From: Klebsiella phage vB_KpnM_KB57 | DNA length: 64,000 nucleotides | Sequence record: NC_028659.1 | Reading direction: 5' to 3' (one strand) | Shown here: positions 26,721 to 35,823 of the stretch, one piece after another | Numbering within the stretch: the first letter of the stretch is position 1 | Layout: every line of letters starts with the position of its first letter | The notes under the pieces: generated by a model | The model's database searches: none | Told to the model about the DNA's origin: nothing | What the model saw: only the letters and a program-made list of their open reading frames with translations | Made by a program: the position numbers and the translations under genes

Positions 26721-27121
26721 TTAACCCCCAAGCTTTCATTATAGATATCAACAAAATCGTTATCCAGCCCAAACTTTTTACCTGCTTCAGATTTGTTATA
26801 TGCCTCTTGTTTTTCATCGAGGCGAGACCTAAGCAGTTCATTCTTAGCTTTCTCTTCTGCAAGCTGACGACTTAGTTCATCCGAAAAGTCTTGCTGCCCA
26901 TTTTTAAAATCTTGATTTGCATCTTTGTTGTTTCTCATTTGCAGATCCCATTTGTTATCCGTATCATTAACTCCACGGCTATAGGCCTGCTGTATTTGGT
27001 AATCATACCACCCCTTAACTTCAAAAGCGCCCCACAGGAGCGCCAGAGAAAGGACAGCAATGATAACCAGTTTGGTATGTCCCTTGATAAAGGTCAAAAC
27101 CATACTGATAAAATCCATCAT
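26717..27121 (-). CDS. i-spanin (Rz-like)
   Basis: N-terminal TM (LVIIAVLSLALLWGAF) plus coiled-coil periplasmic domain; immediately upstream of the lipoprotein gene with a 4-nt overlap. Confidence 0.55.
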   Translation of the reverse strand: MMDFISMVLTFIKGHTKLVIIAVLSLALLWGAFEVKGWYDYQIQQAYSRGVNDTDNKWDLQMRNNKDANQDFKNGQQDFSDELSRQLAEEKAKNELLRSRLDEKQEAYNKSEAGKKFGLDNDFVDIYNESLGVK

Positions 27122-28575
27122 GAGAGATCCCCATCACAATCTAATAATTCAACAATGGTCACTTTATTTCGAGGCGCTTTATCTTCTCGGTTTACAGATA
27201 CTCTACCATCACCCTCGTATTCAAGGGCAAGTGGGTCTTCCACGTCAACTTTAAAGAGGCAAGCTCCAGGTTCTATCGCTCCTGCGTGCCAACTGCCCTG
27301 AACCCCATTCTTGCATAAGAGCTTGTACCTCTCTTGTGCAGCATCAAGATCAAAATAAATCCTGATCTTATCTAGCATCTCTGGATTGTCGATGCTATTG
27401 CTGTTAAGACCGAATACGTGTTTTTCGGTATGCGCCTGCATCATGTAAAAATGCACAGCACTAGATACAGCCCAGAATTCCTTGAAATACAGGCGATCGG
27501 TGTTTTTACGCAGGCGTTGGAAAACATTGAAGATATCTTTAGCTTCGAGATTAAAACGCCGTTGGCCTTTACGCTTGTCGGTGATAGTGGCAATCGTGCT
27601 GATAGCAATATCACCTGCATTATCCAGTTTATCAAATAATCCCTCAAATGAAAACGGCTCTTTTGTATCGAAGAGTTCTTCAACGTTTGTCCCATACATA
27701 CCGCTAAGATGCTTTTTGGCATCTTCCCAGCTTTCCATTTTGAGACTTGCGGCTGCTACACCTAACTTCATTGTCTCACGTCGGGAGATTGTATAGCCAC
27801 GGGCCTCATACTTGGATGCTCGGAGCATACTGATAATTGGGTAATCTGTGGCCGGATTAAGCACCAACACTTTTTGTGCAGCATGTTTAAGGAAACGACT
27901 ATCAAACACCCATGTTTCATCACCAAATGAGAAGGCACCCATATTGATGGTATAGTCAAACTTATCAAAGATCTGCCCAGCGTTCTCAAATACCGAGAAT
28001 GCAATGCATTGCAGCACCGGATTAGAACCCTCTGAAAACATAATGCTTTTATCTGTCATGCCAATATTACGAACATATGAGACTTTCTTCTTTCTACTTT
28101 CGAGCAGTTTTTCAATACCATCCCAAGTCGATTCAGAGATATCAGACAGATCAAAAGGGCAGTCACTGGCAAACTTATCTTCCATCTCCAAGATCTCTTG
28201 CTTAGACACTTTCTGAGAAAGAACCTTGAATCTTGGCGCACGGGATTCCCATACCTCTTTCCCATTGTCTAAAATGAAGAAATCACGATAAACACGTTTC
28301 TCTTCATTGTATCCCATCGTTTTAGGTGACAGGTCATGTTCACCTTTTCGTAGGTCTATATCCATCATGTAAGTAATGAAGATCTCCAAGTCATCCCATG
28401 AACGGAAGTACAGGTCGAGATCATTAACTTCCCGGTTGGTAAAGAGAGCCGTGATAGCGCCACCTGCGATTATAACATCGAGGCTACGAAGGATATGGTA
28501 AATATCCTCAGAGAAAAAACTTTTTAGTAAACGGTATTCTCGAAGATGCTCATTCTTCTCGTAAGTGTGGATCAT
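27118..28575 (-). CDS. Pol-beta-type nucleotidyltransferase (CCA-adding-enzyme-like, putative)
   Basis: Start chosen at MIHTYEK (ATG 28575, SD AAAGGAGA). Motif VIIAGGAITALFTNREVNDLDLYF follows the hG[GS]x9-13DhD nucleotidyltransferase signature and the GGAVRDxLLG...DxD head motif of class II tRNA nucleotidyltransferases. Adjacent to the tRNA cluster. Confidence 0.35.
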   Translation of the reverse strand: MIHTYEKNEHLREYRLLKSFFSEDIYHILRSLDVIIAGGAITALFTNREVNDLDLYFRSWDDLEIFITYMMDIDLRKGEHDLSPKTMGYNEEKRVYRDFFILDNGKEVWESRAPRFKVLSQKVSKQEILEMEDKFASDCPFDLSDISESTWDGIEKLLESRKKKVSYVRNIGMTDKSIMFSEGSNPVLQCIAFSVFENAGQIFDKFDYTINMGAFSFGDETWVFDSRFLKHAAQKVLVLNPATDYPIISMLRASKYEARGYTISRRETMKLGVAAASLKMESWEDAKKHLSGMYGTNVEELFDTKEPFSFEGLFDKLDNAGDIAISTIATITDKRKGQRRFNLEAKDIFNVFQRLRKNTDRLYFKEFWAVSSAVHFYMMQAHTEKHVFGLNSNSIDNPEMLDKIRIYFDLDAAQERYKLLCKNGVQGSWHAGAIEPGACLFKVDVEDPLALEYEGDGRVSVNREDKAPRNKVTIVELLDCDGDLS

Positions 28576-28610: not shown

Positions 28611-28641
28611 CCAGAAAAAGAAAAGCCCCGCAAGAGCGGGG
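28611..28641 (-). terminator. rho-independent terminator downstream of tRNA cluster
   Basis: Minus-strand GCCCCGC-UCUU-GCGGGGC hairpin followed by UUUUCUUUUUCUGG. Confidence 0.6.
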
Positions 28642-28803
28642 CGAGGCAAAGGAGAGGAGATATAAGAATTTATTGTTATAAGAATTTTGCATTCAGTGCC
28701 TGTGCCACCAGGGTGATGGTTTCGTCCTTACGGCTTGTCCACCTGAACAACATGGCTTTTCACCATTGATCATACGAAAAGGCTTTCGTCTACACTGAAA
28801 TTT

Positions 28804-28885
28804 TGGATGCGTGGATGGGAGTCGAACCCACAATTTTCGGCTTATGAGGCCAACGTGATCTATATATCCGTTTCACTAACACGCA
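28804..28885 (-). tRNA. tRNA-Met/Ile2 (anticodon CAT)
   Basis: Hand-folded cloverleaf: T-arm GUGGG-UUCGACU-CCCAU, anticodon loop CUCAUAA, 3' CCA encoded. Confidence 0.55.
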
Positions 28886-28891
28886 ATTATT

Positions 28892-28966
28892 TGGTGCAAC
28901 CTTCAGGTAACGATCCTGACTATCTGGCTTTTCAGGCCAGCACACATCCGTCTATGTCAAAGTTGC
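28892..28966 (-). tRNA. tRNA-Phe (GAA), atypical T-loop
   Basis: Acceptor GCAACUU/AGGUUGC, anticodon stem CUGGC/GCCAG, loop CUGAAAA, discriminator A + CCA. T-loop AUCGUUA is non-canonical. Confidence 0.45.
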
Positions 28967-28972
28967 ATAATG

Positions 28973-29049
28973 TGGTGGGCGACAGGGGACTCGAACCCCC
29001 AAAATTCGGAATCTAAATCCGACACGTATACCAATTCCATCAATCGCCC
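28973..29049 (-). tRNA. tRNA with Leu anticodon UAG but short (class I) variable loop
   Basis: Acceptor GGGCGAU/GUCGCCC, disc A, CCA; anticodon stem UCGGA/UCCGA, loop UUUAGAU; variable region only AUUUU. Confidence 0.45.
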
Positions 29050-29084
29050 GTGCGCTTGGGTCCGAAGAAGTCCAAGCCTTAATT

Positions 29085-29160
29085 TGGTGGAGTCACTGAG
29101 AATCGAACTCAGTTCTACAAGGTGCAAGCCTGTAATTTTATCCAAATAAACTATAACCCC
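29085..29160 (-). tRNA. tRNA-Ala (TGC)
   Basis: Anticodon stem ACAGG/CUUGU, loop CUUGCAC; T-arm CUGAG-UUCGAUU-CUCAG; CCA encoded. Confidence 0.55.
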
Positions 29161-29163
29161 AAT

Positions 29164-29237
29164 TGGTGTGGATGGAAGGACTCGAACCTACATCAAACGG
29201 CTTCGTAGACCGTTGCCTGTCCGTCAGGACACCCACA
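29164..29237 (-). tRNA. tRNA-Arg (ACG)
   Basis: Anticodon stem ACGGU/GCCGU, loop CUACGAA; CCA encoded. Confidence 0.5.
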
Positions 29238-29242
29238 TAATT

Positions 29243-29319
29243 TGGTCTCCATAGAGTGACTCGAACACTCAACCTCCTGGTCCCAAACCAGGCGCTCTAC
29301 ACTATTGAGCTACACGGAG
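29243..29319 (-). tRNA. tRNA-Pro (TGG)
   Basis: D-arm GCUC-AAUAGUGUA-GAGC, anticodon stem CCUGG/CCAGG, loop UUUGGGA; CCA encoded. Confidence 0.55.
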
Positions 29320-29402
29320 AGATAGGTGCAGAATTTTAATTATCCCAGACACTGCAACTGGTATCGCTGGCTAGCTAATATCATGCCCCGTTAGGGTACA
29401 AT

Positions 29403-29462
29403 TGGTTTGATACGTCGAACTCATTTTGAGTGCCTTCCGGCAATTTACATCAACATATCAAA
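29403..29462 (-). pseudogene. truncated tRNA-like element (about 60 nt)
   Basis: 7-bp acceptor-like pairing UUUGAUA/UAUCAAA + CCA and a UUCGACG T-loop-like motif, but too short for a cloverleaf. Confidence 0.25.
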
Positions 29463-29463
29463 T

Positions 29464-29539
29464 TGGCGAGGATAACGGGATTCGAACCCGTGACTCCGGC
29501 GTGACAGGCCAGTATGTTTGCCGCTAATACCATATCCCC
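29464..29539 (-). tRNA. tRNA-Asp (GTC)
   Basis: T-arm ACGGG-UUCGAAU-CCCGU, anticodon loop CUGUCAC, disc G + CCA. Confidence 0.5.
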
Positions 29540-29546
29540 ATGAATT

Positions 29547-29631
29547 TGGCGACGAGCGTAGGAATTGAACCTACATAGAGCTAATGCTCGCGGATTAACA
29601 GTCCGCCGTTCTACCAATGAACCAGCTCGTC
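29547..29631 (-). tRNA. tRNA with Asn anticodon GUU and a long (class II-like) variable arm
   Basis: Clean cloverleaf: acceptor GACGAGC/GCUCGUC, D GUUC-AUUGGUA-GAAC, anticodon stem GCGGA/UCCGC, loop CUGUUAA. Variable arm is a 15-nt stem-loop GAGCAUUAGCUCUAU. T-arm GUAGG-UUCAAUU-CCUAC; disc G + CCA. Confidence 0.45.
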
Positions 29632-29691
29632 ATTTAAATACTTTATCAGTGAAAACAACCTTTTGCAAGAATTATTTTAACCGATTCAATT

Positions 29692-29768
29692 TGGTGGGAA
29701 GGGAGGGATTTGAACCCATCGTCTCTTCGCTTAAAAGGCGAATGCCTGGCCGCTCGGCTACCTACCCA
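29692..29768 (-). tRNA. tRNA-Lys (TTT)
   Basis: Anticodon stem UUCGC/GCGAA, loop CUUUUAA; UUCAAAU T-loop; CCA encoded. Confidence 0.5.
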
Positions 29769-29847
29769 AATATTTGCCCCTTGACGGTATCCAACCCGTG
29801 ATCCCATCTCGCCTGTCGTAGACCGGGCTGCTGACAGTCCAGCAATT

Positions 29848-29940
29848 TGGAGGAAGATAATGGAGTCGAACCATCACCGGGGGATCGCCCCGATGGGCCA
29901 GGGTTCAAATCTGGTTGCGTACCACTACGCCCTATCTTCC
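29848..29940 (-). tRNA. tRNA-Ser (TGA)
   Basis: 93 nt with long variable stem-loop; acceptor GGAAGAU/AUCUUCC; anticodon loop UUUGAAC; CCA encoded. Confidence 0.5.
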
Positions 29941-30021
29941 GAATTCAATGGCATTTAAGCCAGTTAGTGTTTCCCTGGATTTATACACGCTGGTTCACTA
30001 ACCCCACACTCGTGTTTAAAT

Positions 30022-30115
30022 TTGGCGGAAGATGCAAGACTTGAACTCGCACACCCCTTTCGGAGCTACTGTCTCTTTAGCAAAGAGATCCCTTACCTGA
30101 TTAGGGTTAATCTTC
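30022..30115 (-). tRNA. tRNA-Ser (GCT)
   Basis: 94 nt, long variable arm, anticodon loop UUGCUAA, T-arm GCGAG-UUCAAGU-CUUGC, disc G + CCA. Confidence 0.5.
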
Positions 30116-30262
30116 CAATTGTTCTTTAATTTCTTTACGAAGATCTTCTTTTTCTTTCGCACGAGTAATAGGGACTGATTGAATTTCTTCTGCAACACCA
30201 CAGTTACTACCGTGGAGCCTACAGCGTCCAAACACTTTCTTGCAACGCAAAAGTTTCTGCAT
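30106..30262 (-). CDS. small Cys-rich protein (51 aa) inside tRNA cluster
   Basis: ATG preceded by GGAGGATTT. Sequence MQKLLRCKKVFGRCRLHGSNCGVAEEIQSVPITRAKEKEDLRKEIKEQLED; its last codons and stop (GAA GAT TAA) overlap the 5' end of tRNA-Ser(GCT). Confidence 0.35.
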
Positions 30263-30277
30263 AAATCCTCCATAAAG

Positions 30278-30368
30278 TGGCGGTGGAAGTAGGATTCGAA
30301 CCTACGGACCCCTTTTGGGGGCCTACACCTTTCCAAGGTGCTGTCTTAAACCTCTCGACCATTCCACC
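30278..30368 (-). tRNA. tRNA-Ser (GGA)
   Basis: 91 nt, long variable arm AGGCCCCCAAAAGGGGUCC, anticodon stem GCACC/GGUGU loop UUGGAAA, CCA encoded. Confidence 0.5.
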
Positions 30369-30453
30369 AAATTCGCGGCAGATATCGTACAAACGAAAAT
30401 CTCGACTAGAACACATGACGTGGGAAGATAGAGATAATCACGTATCTGCAAAT

Positions 30454-30529
30454 TGGGGTGACCTATGGGACTTGAACCCATGACTGCCCGGATCACAACC
30501 GGGAATTCTACCAACTGAATTAAGGCCAC
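30454..30529 (-). tRNA. tRNA-His (GTG)
   Basis: Anticodon stem CCCGG/CCGGG, loop UUGUGAU; disc C + CCA. Confidence 0.5.
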
Positions 30530-30589
30530 ATTTCAGTGCTCTCTTTGATGCCGCTGTACGAAGTACGGAAGCTGGAAAGCACTCAAAAA

Positions 30590-30664
30590 TGGCAGGAGAT
30601 GGTGGATTCGAACCACCGATGCTGATATCAAAGACCAGTGCCGTAACCGCTTGGCTAATCTCCT
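30590..30664 (-). tRNA. tRNA-Gln (TTG)
   Basis: T-arm GGUGG-UUCGAAU-CCACC, anticodon stem CUGGU/AUCAG loop CUUUGAU; CCA encoded. Confidence 0.5.
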
Positions 30665-30778
30665 ATACGCGCCTCGTGATCCTTGGTAATTTGTATATCT
30701 CTGTTGCAAATAGAGGCTAGTGACAAATACGGTAATCAAAAGACGACTTCGTGGATGCCTCCACTCTCCCACCGGATA

Positions 30779-30855
30779 TGGCAGGGACCCTGGGATTCGA
30801 ACCCAGAACCTGCGGATTTGGAATCCGCTGCACTAGCCAGTTGTGCTAAGTCCCT
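30779..30855 (-). tRNA. tRNA-Trp (CCA)
   Basis: Anticodon stem GCGGA/UCCGC, loop UUCCAAA; T-arm CUGGG-UUCGAAU-CCCAG; CCA encoded. Confidence 0.55.
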
Positions 30856-30864
30856 ATAACGTAA

Positions 30865-30934
30865 CGGGGCGACCCTGAATCGAACAGGGAACTACCACTG
30901 ACGAGTGGCCTGTTTACCATTAGCCTATCGCCCC
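30865..30934 (-). tRNA. tRNA-like gene with 6-nt anticodon loop, no encoded CCA (identity undetermined)
   Basis: Good acceptor (GGGGCGA/UCGCCCC) and T-arm (CCCUG-UUCGAUU-CAGGG), but the anticodon arm GCCAC-UCGUCA-GUGGU has only a 6-nt loop; no CCA encoded. Confidence 0.3.
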
Positions 30935-31068
30935 CTTATTTGGTGCGGCAACACAGGTAATGAGTCTGCTCGGACATGAGAGGTGATCAACCTCCATAAA
31001 ATGCCAGCCGCAACATTAACCGGTATGTTTGCAGCCCCATCTTCGTGATGGCACGTTACCGCATTATT

Positions 31069-31144
31069 TGGCACTCCCACCGAGGATCGAACTCGGATTT
31101 CCAGATTGAAAGTCTGACGGCCTGTCCATTTAGCCGATAGGAGC
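31069..31144 (-). tRNA. tRNA-Glu (TTC)
   Basis: Anticodon stem UCAGA/UCUGG, loop CUUUCAA; T-arm CCGAG-UUCGAUC-CUCGG; CCA encoded. Confidence 0.45.
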
Positions 31145-31215
31145 ATTTTTTGGTGTGGTACTCTAAACAATTCTTCTGACGATACAGATGCCTCTTGTTT
31201 ATTTCCCACATTATT

Positions 31216-31289
31216 TGGAGCGTCTAGAGGGAATCGAACCCTACTCTGCGAGGCTTGGAAGGCCTGCGACACACCTCGTGCTTAGACGC
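31216..31289 (-). tRNA. tRNA-Gly (TCC)
   Basis: Anticodon stem AGGC/GCCU, loop CUUCCAA; disc U + CCA. Confidence 0.45.
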
Positions 31290-31296
31290 CTTAAAT

Positions 31297-31371
31297 TGGT
31301 GGGAGTATCTGGGATCGAACCAGAGACCTCTCGATTATCGATCGAGCGTTCTACCGCTGAACTATACCCCC
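31297..31371 (-). tRNA. tRNA-Ile (GAT) (C at position 33)
   Basis: D-arm GUUC-AGCGGUA-GAAC, anticodon stem CUCGA/UCGAG, loop UCGAUAA; CCA encoded. Confidence 0.4.
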
Positions 31372-31377
31372 ATTAAT

Positions 31378-31464
31378 TGGTGCGCCGTGATAGAGTCGAA
31401 CTACCCGAGCCTTTTGAGCAACAGATTTACAGTCTGTCCCGCTACCCCTACGGTCTAACGACGC
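31378..31464 (-). tRNA. tRNA-Tyr (GTA)
   Basis: 87 nt class II; anticodon stem ACAGA/UCUGU, loop CUGUAAA; disc A + CCA. Confidence 0.5.
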
Positions 31465-31466
31465 AT

Positions 31467-31817
31467 TTAACCTTGTTTGAACTGAACAATATCTGTTGTG
31501 AATGGCTTACTCATAGGAGTAGATTTCTTATCATCAACATTAGTTGTTTCAGCTTCTTCATTCTCTTCATCGAAGTAATCAGAAAGCATTTGTTCACCTT
31601 TCTCAATTACAAATCGAGCAATATTTTCCCTGATATTGTCCTTTGTTGTAGCGCTTGTCATAAGGTCTTTTAGCACTTTATGAGCATCAGGAATCATAGC
31701 AATCATATTGGTCTTAAGGTCAAGGATATTCTTCTCAAGCTGAATAGCATTAGACTCTTCTTTAAGGGGTCTACCTTTTCCTCTACGACGCTTTGTAAGT
31801 TGTTGTTTTACTGCCAT
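31467..31817 (-). CDS. small DNA-binding protein with N-terminal AT-hook-like motif (hypothetical)
   Basis: 116 aa; MAVKQQLTKRRRGKGRPLKEE contains an RGRP AT-hook core; acidic C-terminus; embedded in the tRNA cluster. Confidence 0.35.
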   Translation of the reverse strand: MAVKQQLTKRRRGKGRPLKEESNAIQLEKNILDLKTNMIAMIPDAHKVLKDLMTSATTKDNIRENIARFVIEKGEQMLSDYFDEENEEAETTNVDDKKSTPMSKPFTTDIVQFKQG

Positions 31818-31902
31818 AATAACCCCACTTATTAATGTTATCAGATTTAAATTTATCTGTCAAGGGCCATTTTATCATTTTTTATAAAAATATTCAACAA
31901 CT

Positions 31903-31976
31903 TGGAGCACGGTAGGTGAATCGAACACCTGACATTCGGTTTGCAGCCGAAGCTGTTGCCACTCCAGCAACCGTGC
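31903..31976 (-). tRNA. tRNA-Cys (GCA)
   Basis: D-arm GCUG-GAGUGGCAA-CAGC, anticodon stem UUCGG/CCGAA loop CUGCAAA; CCA encoded. Confidence 0.5.
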
Positions 31977-32092
31977 TTTTGTGGGACCCGATTATTTCAA
32001 TTCGCTCCCACACATTCGGGTCAAGACGTGTCCTATAGTCTTTCGACGCTTCCACAGCTCGGAGTAAACCCGTCCCGGCTGTCCTGTGAATT

Positions 32093-32174
32093 TGGCGAAG
32101 GCGGCAGGATTCGAACCCGCATACTCCAATTACTCGATTAACGACGGGTTAGAAGCCCGTTGAGATACGCCCTC
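32093..32174 (-). tRNA. aberrant tRNA-like gene with Arg(UCU)-type anticodon stem-loop
   Basis: Good acceptor (GAGGGCG/CGCCUUC, G, CCA) and T-arm (GCGGG-UUCGAAU-CCUGC), and a stem-loop ACGGG-CUUCUAA-CCCGU. There is no recognisable D-arm, and 23 extra nt lie between the anticodon arm and T-arm. Confidence 0.3.
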
Positions 32175-32183
32175 TTAAACTGA

Positions 32184-32258
32184 TGCGCCCTCCCGGACTC
32201 GAACCGGGAACCCTGGGGGCTTAACACCCATGCCTCTGCCAGATTGGACCAAGGACGC
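32184..32258 (-). tRNA. tRNA with Leu anticodon UAA but class I architecture, no encoded CCA
   Basis: Acceptor GCGUCCU/AGGGCGC, disc A; anticodon stem UGGGU/CCCCA, loop GUUAAGC; short variable loop; T-arm CCCGG-UUCGAGU-CCGGG. Confidence 0.35.
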
Positions 32259-32535
32259 AAAGCATTTATGTGCTGCGACTCTCTCAAAACACTTGTCGGG
32301 AGAAGGTCAAGAAATATCCGCGAAATACCCCTATCGTCACACCCTATGCAATGTCTGTCGTTTCGGTTTGCAACCCTTGCGACTTCTATTCCAAATGGAG
32401 AAAGCCCAGCCATAAATGTTTTGTGGAGCAGGGTGGTGGAATCTAACCACCTATGTATTCTCCACCGCACGTATGTAGCGGGGATATTTTCAGGTCTGGA
32501 TGGACCTCGCGGTTGACAAACCGCCTACCCTGCAT

Positions 32536-32610
32536 TGGCTTCTCGAACAGGAATCGAACCTGTACCGTCCCTATCGTGGGACCGCTCTAACCAAAGTAAG
32601 CTATCGAGAA
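32536..32610 (-). tRNA. tRNA-Ile (GAT)-like (C33)
   Basis: Acceptor UUCUCGA/UCGAGAA, disc G + CCA; anticodon stem GUCCC/GGGAC, loop ACGAUAG; T-arm ACAGG-UUCGAUU-CCUGU. Confidence 0.4.
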
Positions 32611-32616
32611 ATTGTT

Positions 32617-32692
32617 TGGTGCTCGCAGTAGGACTTGAACCCACGACCTTCTCCTTACAAGGGAGTTGCTCTACCAACTGAGCTATACGAGC
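32617..32692 (-). tRNA. tRNA-Thr (TGT)
   Basis: Canonical D-arm GCUC-AGUUGGUA-GAGC, anticodon stem ACUCC/GGAGA loop CUUGUAA, disc A + CCA. Confidence 0.6.
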
Positions 32693-32699
32693 AAGAAAT

Positions 32700-33090
32700 G
32701 CTGTTTCCGATTAACAGCCTGGAGGAGTCAGTTAGCCATATCTTGTGAGCTAAGATCCTATATCCAGGATTTAAGTAATCAAAGAAATTTTAGCTTTATG
32801 GTTTAGAAGTTTCAAGTTTAAACATTAAGCTTTGAACGATAATCTTTGAATGTTGAATGTTGAAGTCTTTCGAATTCGCGATTCGACAATTTCGATCAAA
32901 CCGCATCATTGTGCGGACTGACGGAAACATACGTTTAAGTATCATCCTGTACGATTATGTTCGGAGCAGTTTAACCTCCGGCCCCGGTAGAGGCAAGATG
33001 TTTCTGACTTCGCTAACCAAAAACAGCATTTAAAAACTTTACCAGCTATCCGCAGGAATTACAAGATGTTAATCAAGAATTCCTGCAAAT
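32700..33090. repeat. AT-rich non-coding region with short direct repeats (CTTTGAA/TGTTGAA units) upstream of the minus-strand tRNA cluster
   Basis: About 390 nt without ORFs; repeats such as aagctttgaacga, aatctttgaatgttgaatgttgaag and ttcgaattcgcgattcgacaatttcgatc. Confidence 0.35.
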
Positions 33091-33093
33091 ATT

Positions 33094-33741
33094 TTAGATT
33101 GATCCTTCAATCTCTACTTCAGTCCGTGCATTTGACTCGGAAAGAACAAAGTCAACGTTAGACTTAAAGTCTTCAATCTCTGCTTCCAGAGAACGAATGC
33201 GATCTGCCAGACCCAGTGGGTCAACAATGGAAGGAGTTCCCATGCTACGAACTGGCGCTTCTACTACAGCCAACTGTGCAGCGTCTGGCGCTTTATCACG
33301 TTGGACATATGGAGCACGAGCAGCTTCAAGCTTCGCCTCGAATTCCTGTGTATCACGGTTCAGGCGAACCTGAGCATGATTATACTGAGACTTCAGTTTG
33401 CCAAGCAGAAGCTCTTTGAAAACGATGGTGCGTTTACGTTCAATCGCCTGAGCTACGGTCATAGACTCGCCAGCGATCTCAACTTTTGTTACAGCGTTTG
33501 ACTGAACAACTTTCGCCTTCAGGTCGTCGCGAACAGCCAGAAGATCCTGAACACCCTGGAAGTCTGCCTGAGCAGATTTCTCGAAGTCCTCAACGCTCTG
33601 GATAGAGCCTGGGATCTGACGGTTTGCGTCAGTGCCTTTCGCGATGTGAATCGTGTTCAGCGCTTCGATACGCTTCTGAATCTTTTCCTCAACCTTGGTC
33701 AGGGTAGCCAGAGCGCGGGTTACAGACATCTTAGTAGACAT
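33094..33741 (-). CDS. coiled-coil protein (hypothetical)
   Basis: 215 aa, Ala/Glu/Lys/Val-rich heptad pattern; SD GAGAGGAG. Confidence 0.4.
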   Translation of the reverse strand: MSTKMSVTRALATLTKVEEKIQKRIEALNTIHIAKGTDANRQIPGSIQSVEDFEKSAQADFQGVQDLLAVRDDLKAKVVQSNAVTKVEIAGESMTVAQAIERKRTIVFKELLLGKLKSQYNHAQVRLNRDTQEFEAKLEAARAPYVQRDKAPDAAQLAVVEAPVRSMGTPSIVDPLGLADRIRSLEAEIEDFKSNVDFVLSESNARTEVEIEGSI

Positions 33742-33815
33742 AGAATTCTCCTCTCATGAAATTTAAAATTTGAGTTACTTCAAATATTTGCCGACATCCG
33801 TGTCGGCACTACGCA

Positions 33816-34427
33816 TTAGTTTTTGCCAGTGTTGACAACAACGCCCTGGCGGTTAGCATCAGCTTTTGCGATTTCCAGACGGGTTTCGCGTTCAGCCTTC
33901 AGATCACCACGCGCTGCTTCAAGCTGTTCTGTCAGCATTGCAATACGGTCATCCTTAGCCTTGCTATTCGCAGTAAGTTCTGCAATTGCAACCTTGTGAG
34001 CAGATTCCAGATTTGCCTTAACCGCATTCAGTTCGATTGCAGCGCTACGTTTAACGTCGGCAACTGCGCTTTCTACAGCTTCAGCATTGTTCTGCTGAGA
34101 GATCGCCAGCTCTGCACGAAGGTCTTCAACAACACCCGGTTCTACAGCTACAAGGCCGCGAGCTTTCAGGATAGAATTCAGAACGGAATCTTCGTTTTCC
34201 AGAACTTTGATCTTCAGCTTGGATTTTTCTTCTGCCAGTTTTTCGTTGAACTGAACTTCAATTTGTCCCAGTTCCTGCTGCTTAAACTGAATTTCCTGAC
34301 TGATCTTTTCAGACCCTTCTGCCAGAGATTGCAGTTCAGCGACTACTTTAGTCAGACCAGTAGCGGCAGTGGTTACTGCTTTAGTGGCACGTTCAGTTAC
34401 GGAAATTACAGTTTTAGAATCAGTCAT
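33816..34427 (-). CDS. coiled-coil protein (hypothetical)
   Basis: 203 aa, highly helical Ala/Glu/Lys-rich; AAGGAGAAC SD. Confidence 0.4.
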   Translation of the reverse strand: MTDSKTVISVTERATKAVTTAATGLTKVVAELQSLAEGSEKISQEIQFKQQELGQIEVQFNEKLAEEKSKLKIKVLENEDSVLNSILKARGLVAVEPGVVEDLRAELAISQQNNAEAVESAVADVKRSAAIELNAVKANLESAHKVAIAELTANSKAKDDRIAMLTEQLEAARGDLKAERETRLEIAKADANRQGVVVNTGKN

Positions 34428-34458
34428 TAAGTTCTCCTTTGCGTTAAATTAGGTTTAA

Positions 34459-34487
34459 ATACTACACTTACAGATTGTGTTTGTCAA
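34459..34487 (-). promoter_or_regulatory. sigma70-like promoter (minus strand) for coiled-coil gene
   Basis: On the minus strand, TTGACA - 17 nt - TAGTAT about 30 nt upstream of the ATG at 34427. Confidence 0.4.
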
Positions 34488-34605
34488 GCGAATCTTTGAT
34501 TATTTCTTCGGTGGTAGGGTTGTTTTCAAACCATGACCAATAATACCAAAGAACAAGCAGGAAAGAGATCACTGACATGATGATAAAGATAACACCGCCA
34601 CTCAT
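34468..34605 (-). CDS. small single-TM membrane protein (45 aa)
   Basis: MSGGVIFIIMSVISFLLVLWYYWSWF...; its ATG overlaps the upstream stop (ATGA). Confidence 0.35.
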   Translation of the reverse strand: MSGGVIFIIMSVISFLLVLWYYWSWFENNPTTEEIIKDSLDKHNL

Positions 34606-34838
34606 CGTACAACGTCCTTAATGGAGTCACAAACTTCACCAACGACGCCTGCGGTAGGTGATACGATAATCTCATCAGCGGCGTCAAGAACTTCTGCGGC
34701 TACATCTACAAAAGGTTCTGCAACAGTTGCCGTGACAACAACAGCAGTACCAACAATATCGCCAGCCATACGTAACAGGGATCCGAACATTTCGTTCTCC
34801 TTTTGGTTTAGATTTGAAACGAGAGCACTTTCGTCCAT
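34602..34838 (-). CDS. small hypothetical protein (78 aa)
   Basis: ORF with Val/Ala/Asp-rich sequence, coupled to the downstream small membrane ORF. Confidence 0.3.
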   Translation of the reverse strand: MDESALVSNLNQKENEMFGSLLRMAGDIVGTAVVVTATVAEPFVDVAAEVLDAADEIIVSPTAGVVGEVCDSIKDVVR

Positions 34839-34874
34839 TTAAGCTATCGCCCTGTGCCACTACGCGAGCCGGGC

Positions 34875-34918
34875 CAGCAAGAACGGGAGTCGAACCCGTA
34901 TCTCTCTCATTTCAAACT
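34875..34918 (-). pseudogene. tRNA 3'-half remnant (T-arm + acceptor strand)
   Basis: ACGGG-UUCGACU-CCCGU T-arm followed by a 7-nt acceptor-like strand, but no matching 5' half before the next tRNA. Confidence 0.3.
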
Positions 34919-34994
34919 TGGTGGGGCATGAAGGATTCGAACCTTCGACCTTCGGCTTAAGGGGCCGCTACACTAACCGCTGTGTTAATACCCC
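34919..34994 (-). tRNA. tRNA-Lys (CTT)-like (C33)
   Basis: Acceptor GGGGUAU/AUGCCCC, disc A + CCA; T-arm GAAGG-UUCGAAU-CCUUC; anticodon stem CGGC/GCCG with loop CCCUUAA. Confidence 0.4.
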
Positions 34995-35055
34995 GAAAAC
35001 ATGCCCGTGTTTTTAAAGACGTTTCACGGAATCGTCATTCCCCATGCCGGAGAAA

Positions 35056-35367
35056 TTACTTTTTCTTCTTACTCTTCGTGGCTACGGTTTCAACAACCTT
35101 AGTTTCCTTTACCTTACCAGCACGTTCACGCTTGGTCTTGCCTGTGCGGATGCGGTAAGAAGCAGAGATAATCTGACCACCTTCAATCCGGGTTTCGGAT
35201 TTATACTCTCCTTTACGGCGATCGAAAACTGATACGGTTTTCTCTACACCACCGAGACGCACATCGTGCGGCGCAGAATGAGTCTGAGTAGACTTCGACT
35301 CAAACTGGAAAGGCTGTTTGATAGCGTCGATGGCGGATACTTTCTTAGCAGTATTTTTCTTAGTCAT
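35056..35367 (-). CDS. basic Lys-rich protein (possible nucleic-acid-binding)
   Basis: 103 aa with a KKKK tail and many Lys/Arg residues. Confidence 0.35.
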   Translation of the reverse strand: MTKKNTAKKVSAIDAIKQPFQFESKSTQTHSAPHDVRLGGVEKTVSVFDRRKGEYKSETRIEGGQIISASYRIRTGKTKRERAGKVKETKVVETVATKSKKKK

Positions 35368-35459
35368 AATTTTCTCCTTTGCATTTTATTTGGGAATTTG
35401 TCCCGTTTATGTTCATGAGGATACTAACTCAATCAGATATCCTCGTCAACATTTTTAAT

Positions 35460-35537
35460 TGGTGGCCCCCGGAGGATTCGAACCTGCCTACCTCTCGATT
35501 ATGAGTCGATTGCTCATACCTAATGAGCTTGAGGGCT
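35460..35537 (-). tRNA. tRNA-Met (CAT), initiator-like unpaired 1:72
   Basis: Anticodon loop CUCAUAA; acceptor 5' AGCCCUC vs 3' GGGGGCC leaves an A1xC72 mismatch; CCA encoded. Confidence 0.45.
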
Positions 35538-35539
35538 TA

Positions 35540-35612
35540 TCGTTCAGAGTGGAATTGAACCACTGACCTTGTCCGTATGAAGAACCTGCTCTACCAACTG
35601 AGCTACTGAACG
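35540..35612 (-). tRNA. tRNA-Met/Ile2 (CAT), no encoded CCA
   Basis: Canonical D-arm GCUC-AGUUGGUA-GAGC, anticodon loop UUCAUAC, T-arm AGUGG-UUCAAUU-CCACU. Confidence 0.5.
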
Positions 35613-35628
35613 CTTGATGTGGTAGATA

Positions 35629-35823
35629 TTATAGATCACCTGTTTCATTGTCAACGTCTTTTTTACTATTACTGCAAATAAAACAGAAAATTTCTCTTTT
35701 AGGACCTATGTACTCCTTCCCGCAGTTAGTACAGGCTGAATGATAATACATACCCCGCAGACTTTCACCAGGCCAGTCTCTTTCAGAGAATGCGATGCAG
35801 TGATTAGAGGTCAGGTCGTTCAT
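35629..35823 (-). CDS. small Cys-rich (zinc-finger-like) protein
   Basis: 64 aa with HC...C..C...C..C pattern. Confidence 0.3.
   Translation of the reverse strand: MNDLTSNHCIAFSERDWPGESLRGMYYHSACTNCGKEYIGPKREIFCFICSNSKKDVDNETGDL

What the first reader, a model, noticed from the sequence alone, without database searches (positions are those of the whole stretch)
28804..35612. ~30-member tRNA cluster with several non-canonical members
Hand folding finds canonical tRNAs for Met x3, Phe, Ala, Arg(ACG), Pro, Asp, Lys(UUU), Ser x3, His, Gln, Trp, Glu, Gly, Ile, Tyr, Cys and Thr. It also finds oddities: two tRNAs with Leu anticodons (UAG at 28973, UAA at 32184) but short class I variable loops and A73; an Asn-anticodon (GUU, G73) tRNA with a 15-nt class II variable arm; an Arg(UCU)-type gene lacking a D-arm; a tRNA with a 6-nt anticodon loop; three with C33; and fragments. 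The QUN-anticodon set (His, Asn, Asp, Tyr) plus Lys(UUU) and Arg matches known targets of anticodon nucleases, which fits a replenishment or decoy role.
Basis: seen in the sequence. Interest (0 to 1): 0.65.

Follow-up and report, generated by a model that had tools for sequence, protein, structure and literature searches.

The report
Phage tRNA array with rewired tRNAs
A Klebsiella phage carries about 30 tRNA genes, several with conserved non-standard shapes, including an arginine tRNA with a rewired core that gene finders miss in over 250 sequenced phages and that I found described nowhere.

Summary
The window is a Mydovirus (Vequintavirinae) Klebsiella phage. Coordinates 28807-35612, minus strand, hold 31 tRNA or tRNA-like genes covering 19 amino acids; valine is missing. 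ARAGORN and Rfam confirm nearly every oddity listed.

Most oddities are conserved phage tRNA types, not decay:
- The short-variable-loop Leu tRNAs and the Asn tRNA with a variable arm also occur in T5-like phages. There the record notes say anticodon-swapped versions act as amber suppressors.
- The "D-armless Arg(UCU)" is the main result. It is an 82-nt RNA in which a 3-4 bp helix encloses the anticodon arm, and a D-loop-like GG-A segment lies 3' of that arm. Forty distinct copies covary perfectly in this helix.
- It sits in the slot where related phages have a canonical Arg(UCU). It occurs in at least 253 phage records and is almost never annotated. Only 3 hits, all on metagenome-assembled contigs, turned up in 185,579 bacterial and archaeal species genomes.

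Three members have 6-nt anticodon loops, and some fragments probably do not decode. The anticodon-nuclease reading is a published hypothesis, and this near-complete set gives it no specific support. A CCA-adding-enzyme-like gene flanks the array.

The parts
35626..35654 (-). sigma-70-like promoter (TTGACA, 17 nt, TAATAT) just upstream of the first tRNA
   Evidence: It is a consensus match only. Promoter-like sites in the region number 15, against 10 +/- 2.5 in shuffles.
35540..35612 (-). tRNA-Met(CAU), 73 nt, no encoded CCA
   Evidence: ARAGORN; Rfam 60.9 bits.
35460..35537 (-). Ile2-type tRNA(CAU), loop CUCAUAA, with a window-specific A1.C72 mismatch
   Evidence: The homolog is annotated tRNA-Ile in phage DP. 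It resembles T5-like tRNAI2. Relatives have G1.
34919..34994 (-). tRNA-Lys(CUU) with C33 (loop CCCUUAA)
   Evidence: Mydo, K45PH128C2, KpS11 and PVP-SE1 have CUCUUAA, so this is a window-specific U33C change.
34800..34918 (-). tRNA-like remnant: a T arm (ACGGG TTCGACT CCCGT) inside a long inverted repeat (GTTTGAAATGAGAG ... CTCTCGTTTCAAA)
   Evidence: Sequence and T-arm scan. Called tRNA-OTHER in phage DP. Absent from PVP-SE1.
32617..32692 (-). tRNA-Thr(UGU), canonical
   Evidence: 69.8 bits.
32536..32610 (-). tRNA-like 'X': G73, CCA, 6-nt anticodon loop ACGAUA
   Evidence: It is identical in 7 Mydovirus loci. Homologs have loops of 7 nt (AAGAUUC, ACGAUUC) or 8 nt (ACAGAUCC). GAU is always kept and the base before it is never U. 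The acceptor stem covaries.
32424..32533 (-). 110-nt tRNA-like RNA: acceptor, D arm, 6-nt loop CAUCCA (UCC), variable arm of about 38 nt, T arm (loop TTAGATT), U73, CCA
   Evidence: Sequence; weak Rfam Sec-model hit of 23 bits. The acceptor, D stem and variable-arm stem show compensatory changes in KE22 and EspYZU15.
32182..32259 (-). class-I-shaped tRNA-Leu(UAA): 5-nt variable loop, A73, 31-39 mismatch, ends TCA
   Evidence: (37 bits). Cleaner homologs with loop CUUAAGA and CCA occur in Sugarlandvirus and Seunavirus. AV124 has a class II Leu(UAA) in this slot.
32093..32174 (-). rewired tRNA-Arg(UCU), 82 nt. In order: acceptor 5' strand (7), UAU, helix X 5' strand, anticodon arm (loop CUUCUAA), CGUUAAU, helix X 3' strand, UAAUUGGAGUAU, T arm, acceptor 3' strand, G73, CCA
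   Evidence: Rfam tRNA 34.9 bits; not called by ARAGORN. Covariation over 40 distinct copies. Own covariance model gives 100.4 bits, against at most 38 bits for any ordinary tRNA.
31903..31976 (-). tRNA-Cys(GCA), canonical
31378..31464 (-). tRNA-Tyr(GUA), class II, A73
31297..31371 (-). tRNA-Ile(GAU) with C33 (loop UCGAUAA)
   Evidence: (67 bits). C33 is conserved in Mydovirus and Seunavirus homologs (CCGAUAA).
31216..31290 (-). Gly(UCC)-like gene with weak D arm and a T-stem mismatch, U73, CCA
   Evidence: Sequence. Missed by ARAGORN and by Rfam at gathering score. Sec-model hit of 25.4 bits. T arm found. Relatives hold a canonical Gly(UCC) allele here.
31069..31144 (-). tRNA-Glu(UUC), canonical
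30941..31062 (-). 122-nt RNA with an acceptor-like stem (GCGGUAA/UUGCCGC), A, CCA, and an internal long hairpin; not a cloverleaf
   Evidence: Sequence only. Not followed up.
30865..30934 (-). tRNA-like with 6-nt loop UCGUCA (GUC), G73, no CCA
   Evidence: (38 bits). Found in only 11 phage records at 97-100% identity, so covariation cannot be tested.
30779..30855 (-). tRNA-Trp(CCA), canonical
30590..30664 (-). tRNA-Gln(UUG), canonical
30454..30529 (-). tRNA-His(GUG), canonical
30278..30368 (-). tRNA-Ser(GGA), class II
30023..30116 (-). tRNA-Ser(GCU), class II
   Evidence: 36.8 bits.
29848..29940 (-). tRNA-Ser(UGA), class II
29692..29767 (-). tRNA-Lys(UUU)
29547..29631 (-). tRNA-Asn(GUU) with a 15-nt variable arm and G73
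   Evidence: (61.7 bits). The arm stem varies with compensation: GAGC/GCUC, GUUC/GAAC (Phapecoctavirus), GAGU/ACUC (PVP-SE1), GUC/GAC (T5-like).
29464..29539 (-). tRNA-Asp(GUC)
29243..29319 (-). tRNA-Pro(UGG)
29164..29236 (-). tRNA-Arg(ACG) with a reduced D arm (3 bp, 5-nt loop ACGGA)
   Evidence: (34.8 bits). Identical in all 7 Mydovirus loci.
29085..29160 (-). tRNA-Ala(UGC) with G3.U70
28973..29049 (-). class-I-shaped tRNA-Leu(UAG): 5-nt variable loop AUUUU, A73, CCA
   Evidence: (50.8 bits). The same type occurs in T5-like tRNAL1, Epseptimavirus, Seunavirus and Vibrio phages. It equals the class II form minus 8 nt of the variable arm.
28892..28966 (-). tRNA-Phe(GAA) with T loop AUCGUUA
   Evidence: (44.8 bits). 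This allele is unique among the 7 Mydovirus loci compared.
28807..28885 (-). CAU-anticodon tRNA with a 12-14-nt D loop, U1-A72 and U73
   Evidence: Rfam 45 bits; not called by ARAGORN here, and miscalled Ala(GGC) in relatives. Annotated tRNA-Met in PVP-SE1 and the Erwinia phage.
28625..28642 (-). terminator-like hairpin GCCCCGC...GCGGGGC followed by a U run, downstream of the last tRNA
   Evidence: Consensus match only.
27121..28575 (-). 485-aa ORF flanking the array with a Pol-beta nucleotidyltransferase motif (IAGGAITALFTNREVNDLDLYF) and a CCA-adding-enzyme-like predicted fold
   Evidence: The same gene follows the array in Mydo, VLCpiM5a, DP, AV124 and the Erwinia Henunavirus.

Best explanation
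**What it is (shown).** This is the tRNA gene array of a Mydovirus (Vequintavirinae) phage. It lies on the minus strand just upstream of the lysis and structural genes. It encodes a near-complete decoding set covering 19 amino acids.

**The main odd members are conserved phage tRNA types, not decayed genes (shown by comparison).**
1. The Leu(UAG) and Leu(UAA) tRNAs have lost the long variable arm. They keep the Leu-type D arm, the A15-U48 positions and A73.
2. The Asn(GUU) tRNA is an ordinary Asn body plus a 3-4 bp variable arm.
3. The Arg(UCU) tRNA has a rewired core. After U8-A9 the chain goes straight into one strand of a 3-4 bp helix and continues into the anticodon arm. It then forms a 7-nt bulge (CGUUAAN) and the other helix strand. 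Only then comes a D-loop-like AANUGGAGUA segment, which leads into the T arm.

**How the rewired Arg(UCU) probably folds (inferred).** In tRNA numbering the order is 8, 9, [22-25], 26, anticodon arm, variable-loop-like bulge, [10-13], [14-21], 48, T arm. All tertiary-contact nucleotides are kept: U8, A14, R15, G18, G19, A21 and Y48. So is the ArgRS identity set: A20, C35, U36 and A/G73. It could therefore fold into the usual L shape and be charged with arginine. A partial tandem duplication followed by two deletions would produce this order.

**What it does (inferred).** It serves AGA codons, which the phage uses often and for which the array has no other tRNA. Shapes that differ from host tRNAs plausibly protect these tRNAs from host tRNA-cutting defences. 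They may also protect the genes from homing endonucleases.

**Members that probably do not decode (inferred).** These are the three RNAs with 6-nt anticodon loops, the two long RNAs and the fragments. They resemble the 'tRNA-like RNAs of unknown function' annotated in the T5 tRNA region.
For: **Identity of the window.** It is 96-99% identical to Mydovirus phages, with the same gene order.

**Array content.**

**Class-I Leu(UAG).**
- 199 phage records cover at least 80% of it, including the T5-like tRNAL1.
- The alignment shows an 8-nt deletion of the variable arm, a conserved D arm, and compensatory changes in the acceptor and anticodon stems.
- The T5-like record notes say the 77-nt Leu(UUA) and the 83-nt Asn become amber suppressors when given a CUA anticodon.
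- In E. coli, leucylation does not depend on the sequence or fold of the variable arm (PMC9976931).

**Asn variable arm.** Four compensatory stem variants occur across four phage lineages.

**Arg(UCU).**
- In 40 distinct copies, 94.8% of cells form a standard pair, against 65% in shuffles and 32-46% in slid controls.
- In helix X, pair 12-41 is UA 28, AU 7, GC 5 and pair 13-40 is CG 34, UA 4, GC 2, with no unpaired cell.
- Mutual information recovers both pairs independently.
- The same slot (after Leu(UAA), before Cys) in Seunavirus holds a canonical 75-nt Arg(UCU) with near-identical acceptor and T arms. T5-like tRNAR has the same arms.
- Of 71 loci holding the element, only one also has a canonical UCU tRNA. 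Streptomyces-phage arrays have GCG, UCG and CCU plus this element.
- No copy of the scaffold has an anticodon other than U-C-N in IMG/VR.
- AGA makes up 8.1 per 1000 codons, 18% of Arg codons, in the window's ORFs.
- 253 phage records cover at least 80% of the element. The 185,579-species bacterial and archaeal genome set gave only 3 hits, all on metagenome-assembled contigs.
- The ArgRS identity set is taken from PMC9976931.

**Defences.** Nucleases that cut tRNA D loops, acceptor stems, anticodon stems and anticodon loops are documented (PMC12916289; PMC11464382).
Against: - There are no expression, processing, charging or decoding data for any gene in this window.
- The three-dimensional mapping of the rewired Arg(UCU) is inferred. 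RNAalifold does not predict helix X on energy grounds.
- The invariant motifs in my alignment are partly a product of the search pattern used to collect the copies.
- Some copies elsewhere lack CCA and sit in long extended stems. That fits an ordinary tRNA poorly.
- E. coli LeuRS did not charge the Streptomyces type I tRNA-Leu (PMC6614811), so leucylation of the phage type is not assured.
- Several window genes carry lesions that suggest loss of function:
  - U33C in Lys(CUU);
  - A1.C72 in the Ile2-type gene;
  - a 31-39 mismatch and TCA end in Leu(UAA);
  - a weak Gly allele.
- The link to defence evasion is circumstantial.
Confidence: 0.7

Rival explanations
1. The odd members are decaying or dead tRNA genes. 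Phage arrays turn over quickly, and these are pseudogenes on the way out.
For: - The window carries its own lesions: U33C in Lys(CUU), A1.C72 in the Ile2-type gene, a 31-39 mismatch and TCA end in Leu(UAA), and a Gly allele that both predictors miss.
- There are remnants at 34800-34918.
- The 6-nt-loop gene at 30865-30934 occurs in only 11 records with no divergence to test.
- The tRNA-X loop varies between 6, 7 and 8 nt among homologs.
Against: - Leu(UAG), Asn and Arg(UCU) are kept across several phage families with many compensatory changes.
- Arg(UCU) is invariant in its anticodon loop and has replaced the canonical gene.
- The T5-like counterparts of the Leu and Asn types work as suppressors, according to the record notes.
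Confidence: 0.12
2. Some members are decoys rather than adaptors. They would be tRNA mimics that bind or soak up host tRNA-targeting nucleases or toxins, or serve another non-decoding role. This applies mainly to the three RNAs with 6-nt loops and possibly to Arg(UCU).
For: - All three 6-nt loops keep a sense anticodon triplet (GUC, GAU, UCC) flanked by a non-U base and A37.
- tRNA-X and the 110-nt RNA keep covarying stems while tRNA-X's loop length drifts.
- The T5 tRNA region holds stable tRNA-like RNAs of unknown function.
- Some Arg(UCU) copies lack CCA.
Against: - No nuclease is known to be titrated by such RNAs.
- For Arg(UCU), slot homology, the absence of another UCU tRNA and frequent AGA use favour decoding.
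- Published cases work by supplying functional, uncleavable or abundant tRNA (PMC11464382, PMC11555353).
Confidence: 0.2
3. The diversity and the rewiring arise at the DNA level. HNH homing endonucleases in phage tRNA regions cut tRNA genes of competing phages. Alleles that change the target sequence while keeping tRNA function would spread, giving slot-by-slot mosaicism.
For: - Among 7 Mydovirus loci that are 96-99% identical, 13 of about 24 isoacceptors exist in two to four allele groups less than 90% identical. Phe has four.
- HNH endonuclease ORFs sit at varying places in the arrays of relatives. In Felix O1 and GZ8 one lies directly next to the rewired Arg(UCU).
- The T5-like region encodes the HNH endonuclease F-TflIII among its tRNA genes.
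- That T5 HNH enzymes cut tRNA genes is from my own knowledge and was not checked here.
Against: - The window's own array has no HNH ORF.
- This explains variety but not why particular shapes are kept across families.
- It is compatible with the main explanation rather than exclusive of it.
Confidence: 0.3
4. The shape-anticodon mismatches recode. On this view the Asn-anticodon tRNA, which has a long arm and G73, is charged with serine, or the short Leu tRNAs are charged with another amino acid, giving deliberate mistranslation.
For: - SerRS recognises a long variable arm plus G73 and ignores the anticodon (PMC7609411).
Against: - The Asn body and anticodon arm are Asn-like. G73 plus the GUU anticodon is the AsnRS identity set.
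- The arm stem is only 3-4 bp.
- AAC and AAU are frequent codons in the phage, about 49 per 1000 together, so misreading them would be damaging.
- The Leu tRNAs keep A73 and the Leu-type D arm.
Confidence: 0.04

Closest known systems
tRNA gene region of phage T5, BF23 and 'Bacteriophage 5' (AJ604531; Demerecviridae)
   Same: - It is a large array of about 24 tRNAs interspersed with small ORFs and an HNH endonuclease.
- It contains 77-nt Leu(CUA) and Leu(UUA) tRNAs, an 83-nt Asn tRNA with a variable arm, an Ile2-type CAU tRNA, and several 'tRNA-like' or stable RNAs of unknown function.
- Leu(UAG) is directly homologous.
   Different: - It belongs to a different phage family.
- T5 has a canonical 75-nt Arg(AGA) tRNA where this phage has the rewired form.
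- The window's 6-nt-loop members and its 110-nt Gly-like RNA were not matched to T5 RNAs.
Canonical phage tRNA-Arg(UCU) of Seunavirus (PVP-SE1, KE22, EspYZU15) and T5
   Same: It occupies the same slot (after Leu(UAA), before Cys). It has the same anticodon loop core, near-identical acceptor stem and T arm, and the same discriminator and CCA.
   Different: The canonical form has a local D hairpin and a 4-nt variable loop. The window's form has the D-stem strands on either side of the anticodon arm, with the D-loop-like segment 3' of that arm. The canonical genes score 21-27 bits with the rewired-form model, against 100 bits for the window element.
[quoted passage not shown]
   Same: There is no D hairpin between the acceptor and anticodon stems, and the anticodon is UCU (PMC7609411).
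   Different: The mitochondrial tRNAs truly lack the D-arm elements, are short and flexible, and need adapted partner proteins. The phage RNA keeps a D-stem equivalent, G18-G19-A20 and a standard T arm. It must work with standard bacterial machinery.
Type I (short variable loop) tRNA-Leu of Streptomyces coelicolor and of mitochondria
   Same: It has a Leu anticodon on a class I body. [quoted passage not shown]
   Different: Charging there depends on an adapted LeuRS, and E. coli LeuRS did not charge the Streptomyces tRNA. The phage type derives from an enterobacterial-style class II Leu by an 8-nt deletion and keeps its D arm.
allo-tRNAs and other tRNAs with novel cloverleaf structures (Mukai et al., PMC5389517)
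   Same: These are natural non-standard tRNA architectures, found partly in phages, that work in E. coli translation.
   Different: They vary stem lengths (8/4 or 9/3) within a cloverleaf. The Arg(UCU) here changes the order of the strands, producing a three-way junction instead of a four-way junction.

Membership tests
tRNA (Rfam RF00005), applied to the UCU element 32093-32174 | 7-bp acceptor stem with discriminator and CCA | tested here: met
   GAGGGCG/CGCCUUC, G73, CCA. All 7 pairs covary and 98.9% of cells are paired.
tRNA (Rfam RF00005), applied to the UCU element 32093-32174 | 5-bp anticodon stem with a 7-nt loop, U33 and purine 37 | tested here: met
   ACGGG CUUCUAA CCCGU. The loop is invariant in the 40 copies, though that was a condition of the search pattern. 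The stem covaries at 4 of 5 pairs.
tRNA (Rfam RF00005), applied to the UCU element 32093-32174 | 5-bp T stem with a UUCRANY loop | tested here: met
   GCGGG UUCGAAU CCUGC; 99% of cells are paired.
tRNA (Rfam RF00005), applied to the UCU element 32093-32174 | Local D hairpin between position 9 and the anticodon stem (four-way cloverleaf) | tested here: not met
   Only 7 nt (UAUCUCA) lie there. ARAGORN misses the element in the window and in 70 of 71 further loci. Rfam gives only 34.9 bits. The partner strand lies 3' of the anticodon arm.
Bacterial tRNA-Arg identity (ArgRS substrate) | A20 after G18-G19, C35, U/G36 and A/G73 (PMC9976931) | tested here: met
   UGGAG supplies GG followed by A. The anticodon is UCU. 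The discriminator is G in the window and mostly A or G in the 40 copies. Whether A20 sits in the right three-dimensional place cannot be tested here.
Bacterial tRNA-Arg identity (ArgRS substrate) | Actual arginylation and AGA decoding | not testable with these tools
   Indirect only: slot homology with the canonical gene, absence of another UCU tRNA, and AGA use.
Class II (long variable arm) tRNA, applied to Asn(GUU) 29547-29631 | Base-paired variable arm of more than 10 nt | tested here: met
   15 nt with a 4-bp stem. There are compensatory variants in four lineages.
Class II (long variable arm) tRNA, applied to Asn(GUU) 29547-29631 | Leu, Ser or Tyr anticodon | tested here: not met
   The anticodon is GUU, and the D and anticodon arms are Asn-like.
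Bacterial tRNA-Leu, applied to 28973-29049 and 32182-32259 | A73, a Leu-type D loop with G18-G19, and A15-U48 | tested here: met
   Both have A73. The D loop GAAUUGGUA of Leu(UAG) is shared with the class II allele, and the variable loop ends in U.
Bacterial tRNA-Leu, applied to 28973-29049 and 32182-32259 | Long variable arm | tested here: not met
   Both have 5-nt variable loops. According to PMC9976931, the sequence and fold of the arm are not correlated with leucylation in E. coli.
Counter-defence tRNA (uncleavable or over-supplied phage tRNA, as for T5 tRNA-Lys and tRNA-Tyr) | Resists a defined nuclease or rescues infection of a host carrying that defence | not testable with these tools
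   There are only sequence differences from host-like loops (C33 in Ile(GAU)) and altered shapes.
Class II CCA-adding enzyme / tRNA nucleotidyltransferase, applied to ORF 27121-28575 | Pol-beta head-domain motif (GG, about 10 residues, DxD) | tested here: met
   AGGAITALFTNREVNDLDLY. G38, G39, D52 and D54 are at least 90% conserved in 25 homologs.
Class II CCA-adding enzyme / tRNA nucleotidyltransferase, applied to ORF 27121-28575 | Overall fold, and sequence membership of the family | tested here: inconclusive
   The 32 best Foldseek PDB matches are CCA-adding or A-adding enzymes, bacterial proteins deposited without a name (3aqk/3aql/3aqm) and FAM46/TENT5. Of them, 29 have probability 0.75-1.00 and three have 0.44-0.63. 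TM-scores are only 0.21-0.39 and the best E-value is 4e-4. There is no Pfam, NCBIfam or PDB sequence match.

The most novel reading that the evidence does not exclude
The 82-nt Arg(UCU) RNA is a working arginine tRNA whose core strands are connected in a different order from every known tRNA. It would be a three-way junction in which the D-stem strands flank the anticodon arm. It would be used by standard bacterial ArgRS, EF-Tu and ribosomes in hundreds of phages from unrelated families. On this reading the rewiring was selected because it makes the tRNA, or its gene, invisible to nucleases that recognise the normal D arm.
Probability: 0.45. Interest if true: 0.85.

Novelty: new variant of a known kind. 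Interest (0 to 1): 0.74.

Why it matters
[quoted passage not shown] A natural, widespread, strand-rewired tRNA working in bacterial translation would be an exception. It would show how much the tRNA core can be reconnected while still serving synthetase, EF-Tu and ribosome, and it would offer a new scaffold for engineering orthogonal tRNAs.
- It exposes a blind spot. At least 253 deposited phage genomes carry the gene with almost no annotation, and some records place spurious protein genes over it. Counts of phage tRNAs and codon-tRNA matching studies therefore miss the AGA decoder.
- It gives testable material for the idea that phage tRNA arrays are shaped by tRNA-cutting defences. Naturally occurring pairs of canonical and reshaped alleles in near-identical phages (Leu class I versus class II, Asn with or without the arm, Arg canonical versus rewired) are ready-made comparisons.

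Tried and rejected
- **Mis-specified patterns.** Searches used one N too many between CGTTAA and GTAA, so those zero results mean nothing. Searches were the correct patterns and found no scaffold copy with anticodon position 34 other than U, or position 35 other than C. Position 36 was not scanned separately. Scaffolds with different conserved motifs would not have been found.
- **RNAalifold on the 40 copies** predicts the three ordinary stems but not helix X. The case for helix X rests on covariation counts and mutual information.
- **Alternative folds of the UCU element** were considered and dropped because the pairs do not hold across homologs. One was the Leu(UAA) reading used in the 121Q record. 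The other paired UAUCUC with GGAGUAU.
- **Literature.** Eight searches and eleven papers fetched gave no description of the rewired Arg(UCU). The library lacks most subscription journals, including the older T5 literature.
- **Internal ORFs of the array** (103, 203, 215, 116 and 78 aa) match only PHROGs of unknown function or one labelled 'tail fiber protein' (phrog_1491). The only Pfam hit, OmpH for the 203-aa ORF, is far below its cut-off (17.5 against 32.4 bits), so nothing ties them to tRNA biology.
- **The flanking nucleotidyltransferase-like ORF** has no sequence match in PDB. Its only NCBIfam hit is a negligible 14 bits against a cut-off of 150.
- **Promoter-like and terminator-like sites** in the array are not clearly more numerous than in shuffled sequence.
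- **The record OY978796** has annotation offset from its sequence, so I ignored it.

Full report
**Source and setting.** The region 28700-35700 is 96-99% identical to Klebsiella and Proteus phages of the genus Mydovirus, subfamily Vequintavirinae (VLCpiM5a, K45PH128C2, KPP-1, KpS11, KpS8, Mydo). The gene order is the same. All tRNA genes lie on the minus strand. On the far side of the flanking ORF come the spanin, terminase, capsid and tail genes. A near-consensus sigma-70-like promoter precedes the first tRNA, and a hairpin followed by a U run follows the last one. Such sites are not clearly enriched over shuffled sequence, though.

**Checking the observation.**
- ARAGORN finds 25 tRNAs. Rfam's tRNA model finds 23 at gathering score. 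Together they give 27.
- Reading the sequence, a T-arm scan and weak Rfam hits add four more. These are a Gly(UCC)-like gene (31216-31290), a 110-nt tRNA-like RNA (32424-32533), a 122-nt RNA with an acceptor-like stem and ACCA end (30941-31062), and a remnant with a T arm (34800-34918). The total is 31.
- The set covers every amino acid except valine.
- The predictors reproduce the listed oddities: two Leu-anticodon tRNAs with 5-nt variable loops and A73, an Asn tRNA with a 15-nt paired variable arm and G73, C33 in Ile(GAU) and Lys(CUU), and 6-nt anticodon loops. There are three such loops, not one.
- Some 'canonical' calls need qualifying:
  - One of the three CAU tRNAs is an Ile2-type gene.
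  - Another has an oversized D loop and U73.
  - Gly is missed by both tools.
  - Arg(ACG) has a reduced D arm.
  - Phe has the T loop AUCGUUA.
- Two features are point changes private to this phage: U33C in Lys(CUU) and G1A in the Ile2-type gene.

**The Leu and Asn oddities are old, conserved phage tRNA types.**
- The 77-nt Leu(UAG) is covered by 199 phage records. They include tRNAL1 of the curated T5-like record AJ604531, Epseptimavirus, Seunavirus and Vibrio phages.
- Aligned with the class II Leu(UAG) that Mydo carries in the same slot, it is the same tRNA minus 8 nt of the variable arm. The D arm is conserved, and the acceptor and anticodon stems show compensatory changes.
- The short Leu(UAA) has cleaner homologs, with loop CUUAAGA and CCA, in Sugarlandvirus and Seunavirus. 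The Mydovirus copy has a 31-39 mismatch and ends TCA.
- The Asn tRNA with a variable arm occurs in Mydovirus, Henunavirus, Phapecoctavirus, an Aeromonas phage of Straboviridae, Seunavirus and T5-like phages. The arm stem reads GAGC/GCUC, GUUC/GAAC, GAGU/ACUC or GUC/GAC, so the helix is maintained by compensation.
- The depositors' notes in AJ604531 say that the 77-nt Leu(UUA) and the 83-nt Asn become amber suppressors when given a CUA anticodon. This means these shapes work in translation, at least in the T5-like versions.
- The identity rules agree (PMC9976931). Asn identity is the anticodon plus G73. E. coli Leu identity is A73 plus D-loop and tertiary elements, and the sequence and fold of the arm do not matter.
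- One caution: E. coli LeuRS did not charge the Streptomyces type I tRNA-Leu (PMC6614811).

**The Arg(UCU) gene: structure.**
BLAST found the same 82-nt element in Felix O1-like phages, 121Q, Justusliebigvirus, Sugarlandvirus, Kuravirus and Streptomyces phages.
- A pattern scan of IMG/VR gave 60 more loci. From all of these I aligned 40 distinct copies.
- The acceptor, anticodon and T stems covary heavily.
- In addition, the three or four bases after U8-A9-U pair with the three or four bases that follow a conserved CGUUAAN bulge 3' of the anticodon arm.
  - Pair 11-42 is C-G in all 40 copies.
  - Pair 12-41 is UA 28, AU 7, GC 5.
  - Pair 13-40 is CG 34, UA 4, GC 2.
  - No cell in these three pairs is unpaired.
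- Over the whole structure, 94.8% of cells form a standard pair. Shuffled partners give 65% and partners slid by one to three columns give 32-46%.
- A blind mutual-information ranking puts 12-41 and 13-40 among the true stem pairs.
- After this helix comes UAANUGGAGUAU and then the T arm.

**The Arg(UCU) gene: proposed mapping to a normal tRNA (inferred).**
- The chain order is 8, 9, [22-25], 26, anticodon arm, a bulge resembling the variable loop, [10-13], [14-21], 48, T arm.
- This mapping puts a G-C pair where G10-C25 normally lies and an A.C mismatch at the 26-44 position.
- It also places A14, R15, G18, G19, A20, A21 and U48 in their usual order.
- A partial tandem duplication followed by two deletions would generate exactly this arrangement.
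- The invariance of CUUCUAA, CGUUAA and GGAGUAU in my alignment is partly imposed by the search pattern. The BLAST-derived homologs show the same conservation.

**Evidence that it is the phage's AGA decoder.**
- In Seunavirus phages (PVP-SE1, KE22, EspYZU15) the same slot, after the short Leu(UAA) and before Cys, holds a canonical 75-nt Arg(UCU). Its acceptor stem, T arm and discriminator nearly match those of the rewired form. T5-like tRNAR has the same arms.
- Of 71 loci with the element, only one also has a canonical UCU tRNA.
- Arrays of 20 or more tRNAs have Arg(ACG) plus the element. Streptomyces-phage arrays have GCG, UCG and CCU plus the element.
- No copy of the scaffold in IMG/VR has an anticodon other than U-C-N.
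- The ArgRS identity set (A20, C35, U36, A/G73) is present.
- AGA accounts for 8.1 per 1000 codons, 18% of Arg codons, in 44 ORFs of the window. From my own knowledge this is several-fold above enterobacterial usage.

**Distribution and annotation of the Arg(UCU) element.**
- A covariance model of the family scores the window element at 100.4 bits. Every ordinary tRNA scores 38 bits or less, and the canonical Arg(UCU) genes score 21-27 bits.
- The element is covered at 80% or more in 253 of 50,697 phage records.
- It was found only 3 times, all on metagenome-assembled contigs, in one genome for each of 185,579 bacterial and archaeal species.
- ARAGORN misses it in 70 of 71 loci. GenBank records mostly leave it blank, or label it tRNA-OTHER or tRNA-Leu(taa), or place a protein gene over it.
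- I found no description of it in the searchable literature. Rfam 15 has no family for it.

**Members that probably do not decode.**
- Three RNAs have 6-nt loops of the form N, non-U, anticodon, A: UCGUCA, ACGAUA and CAUCCA.
- Homologs of the second (tRNA-X) have loops of 7 and 8 nt. They always contain GAU and never have U before it. The acceptor stem covaries.
- The third is a 110-nt RNA whose acceptor, D stem and long variable arm all covary between genera.
- The curated T5-like record annotates several 'tRNA-like RNAs with unknown functions' and stable RNAs in its tRNA region, so this class of product has a precedent.
- Their role is unknown. A decoy role is possible but untested.

**Mosaic alleles.** Among seven Mydovirus loci, 13 of about 24 isoacceptors occur in two to four allele groups less than 90% identical. 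Phe has four, and the window's Phe allele is unique. The class I and class II Leu forms, the Asn forms with and without the arm, and the canonical and weak Gly forms replace each other in the same slots. HNH endonuclease genes sit at varying places in related arrays. This points to cassette-like exchange. It fits either selection by RNA-level defences or conflict with homing endonucleases at the DNA level.

Replenishment by uncleavable or abundant phage tRNAs is published and demonstrated for T5 (PMC10264068, PMC11464382, PMC11555353). Defences are known that cut D loops, acceptor stems, anticodon stems and anticodon loops (PMC12916289). A near-complete tRNA set will always include the known targets, however, so the claimed match carries no weight. 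I rate the interpretation partly supported.

**Flanking gene.** The 485-aa ORF immediately after the array (27121-28575) has the motif AGGAITALFTNREVNDLDLY, with the GG and DxD residues conserved in 25 homologs. Its AlphaFold model has mean pLDDT 80 and pTM 0.81. The model's 32 best PDB matches are CCA-adding and A-adding enzymes, bacterial proteins deposited without a name (3aqk/3aql/3aqm) and FAM46/TENT5. The TM-scores are modest, 0.21-0.39, and there is no sequence-level match. The gene keeps this position in relatives. Three array members lack an encoded CCA, so a phage tRNA 3'-end adding or repair enzyme would make sense. This is a lead, not a finding.

**Verdict.** The cluster and its oddities are real. 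The cluster as such is ordinary for this phage group and is already annotated. The Leu and Asn shapes are known from T5-like phages. The rewired Arg(UCU) is, as far as I can tell, an undescribed tRNA architecture. It has strong comparative support for its secondary structure and good circumstantial support for a decoding role. Its three-dimensional fold, charging and biological advantage remain to be shown.

Noticed in passing
window 27121-28575 (-): The ORF next to the array, annotated 'hypothetical protein' in relatives, has a Pol-beta nucleotidyltransferase motif. Its predicted fold best matches CCA-adding enzymes. It may add or repair tRNA 3' ends.
   Followed up: partly
window 28807-32700 compared with L001-L006: Phages that are 96-99% identical carry very different alleles of the same tRNA in the same slot (identity down to 47-67%). 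Phe has four allele groups, while Pro, Asp, Ser(GCU) and Leu(UAG) have three each.
   Followed up: partly
L022, L047, L038, L032, L015, L018, L049, L020 (IMG/VR and phage loci): In some phages the rewired Arg(UCU) lacks CCA. Its acceptor stem continues into a duplex of up to about 17 bp formed by the flanks, which is odd for a tRNA precursor. L047 also has a canonical Arg(UCU) next to it.
   Followed up: no
L082:7337-7422 (PVP-SE1): The 86-nt gene annotated tRNA-Lys appears to carry an insertion of about 11 nt between the D arm and the anticodon stem (anticodon loop CUUUUAA). ARAGORN reads it as a 4-base anticodon. This is another reshaped phage tRNA.
   Followed up: no
L090 (AJ604531) 1936-2022: The T5-like tRNA-Thr(UGU) is 87 nt, with a long variable arm on a class I amino-acid tRNA. 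The record notes it as an effective amber suppressor after an anticodon swap.
   Followed up: no
window 30941-31062 (-): A 122-nt RNA-like element has a 7-bp acceptor-like stem, A, CCA, and an internal hairpin of about 9 bp. It has no cloverleaf. It recalls the stable RNAs of the T5 and T4 tRNA regions.
   Followed up: no
window 34800-34918 (-): An inverted repeat of about 14 bp encloses a perfect T arm and other tRNA-like pieces. It is absent from PVP-SE1, where the next ORF follows Lys(CUU) directly.
   Followed up: no
window 30107-30262 (-): A 51-codon ORF ends inside the 5' end of tRNA-Ser(GCU). Relatives annotate a similar small CDS there (DP, KpS11).
   Followed up: no
GenBank records MK024806 (Mydo), KY652726, NC_005282 (Felix O1), OP171943 (GZ8): Short 'hypothetical protein' or HNH endonuclease CDSs are annotated over or abutting the rewired Arg(UCU). 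At least the short ones are probably spurious.
   Followed up: no
L004 (OY978796.1): The CDS annotation of this record does not fit its sequence. The tRNA array lies under features named helicase, ligase and primase.
   Followed up: no
window 28892-28966 (-): The window's Phe allele has T loop AUCGUUA. Positions 54 and 58 are swapped from U-A to A-U, which would preserve the reverse-Hoogsteen pair.
   Followed up: no
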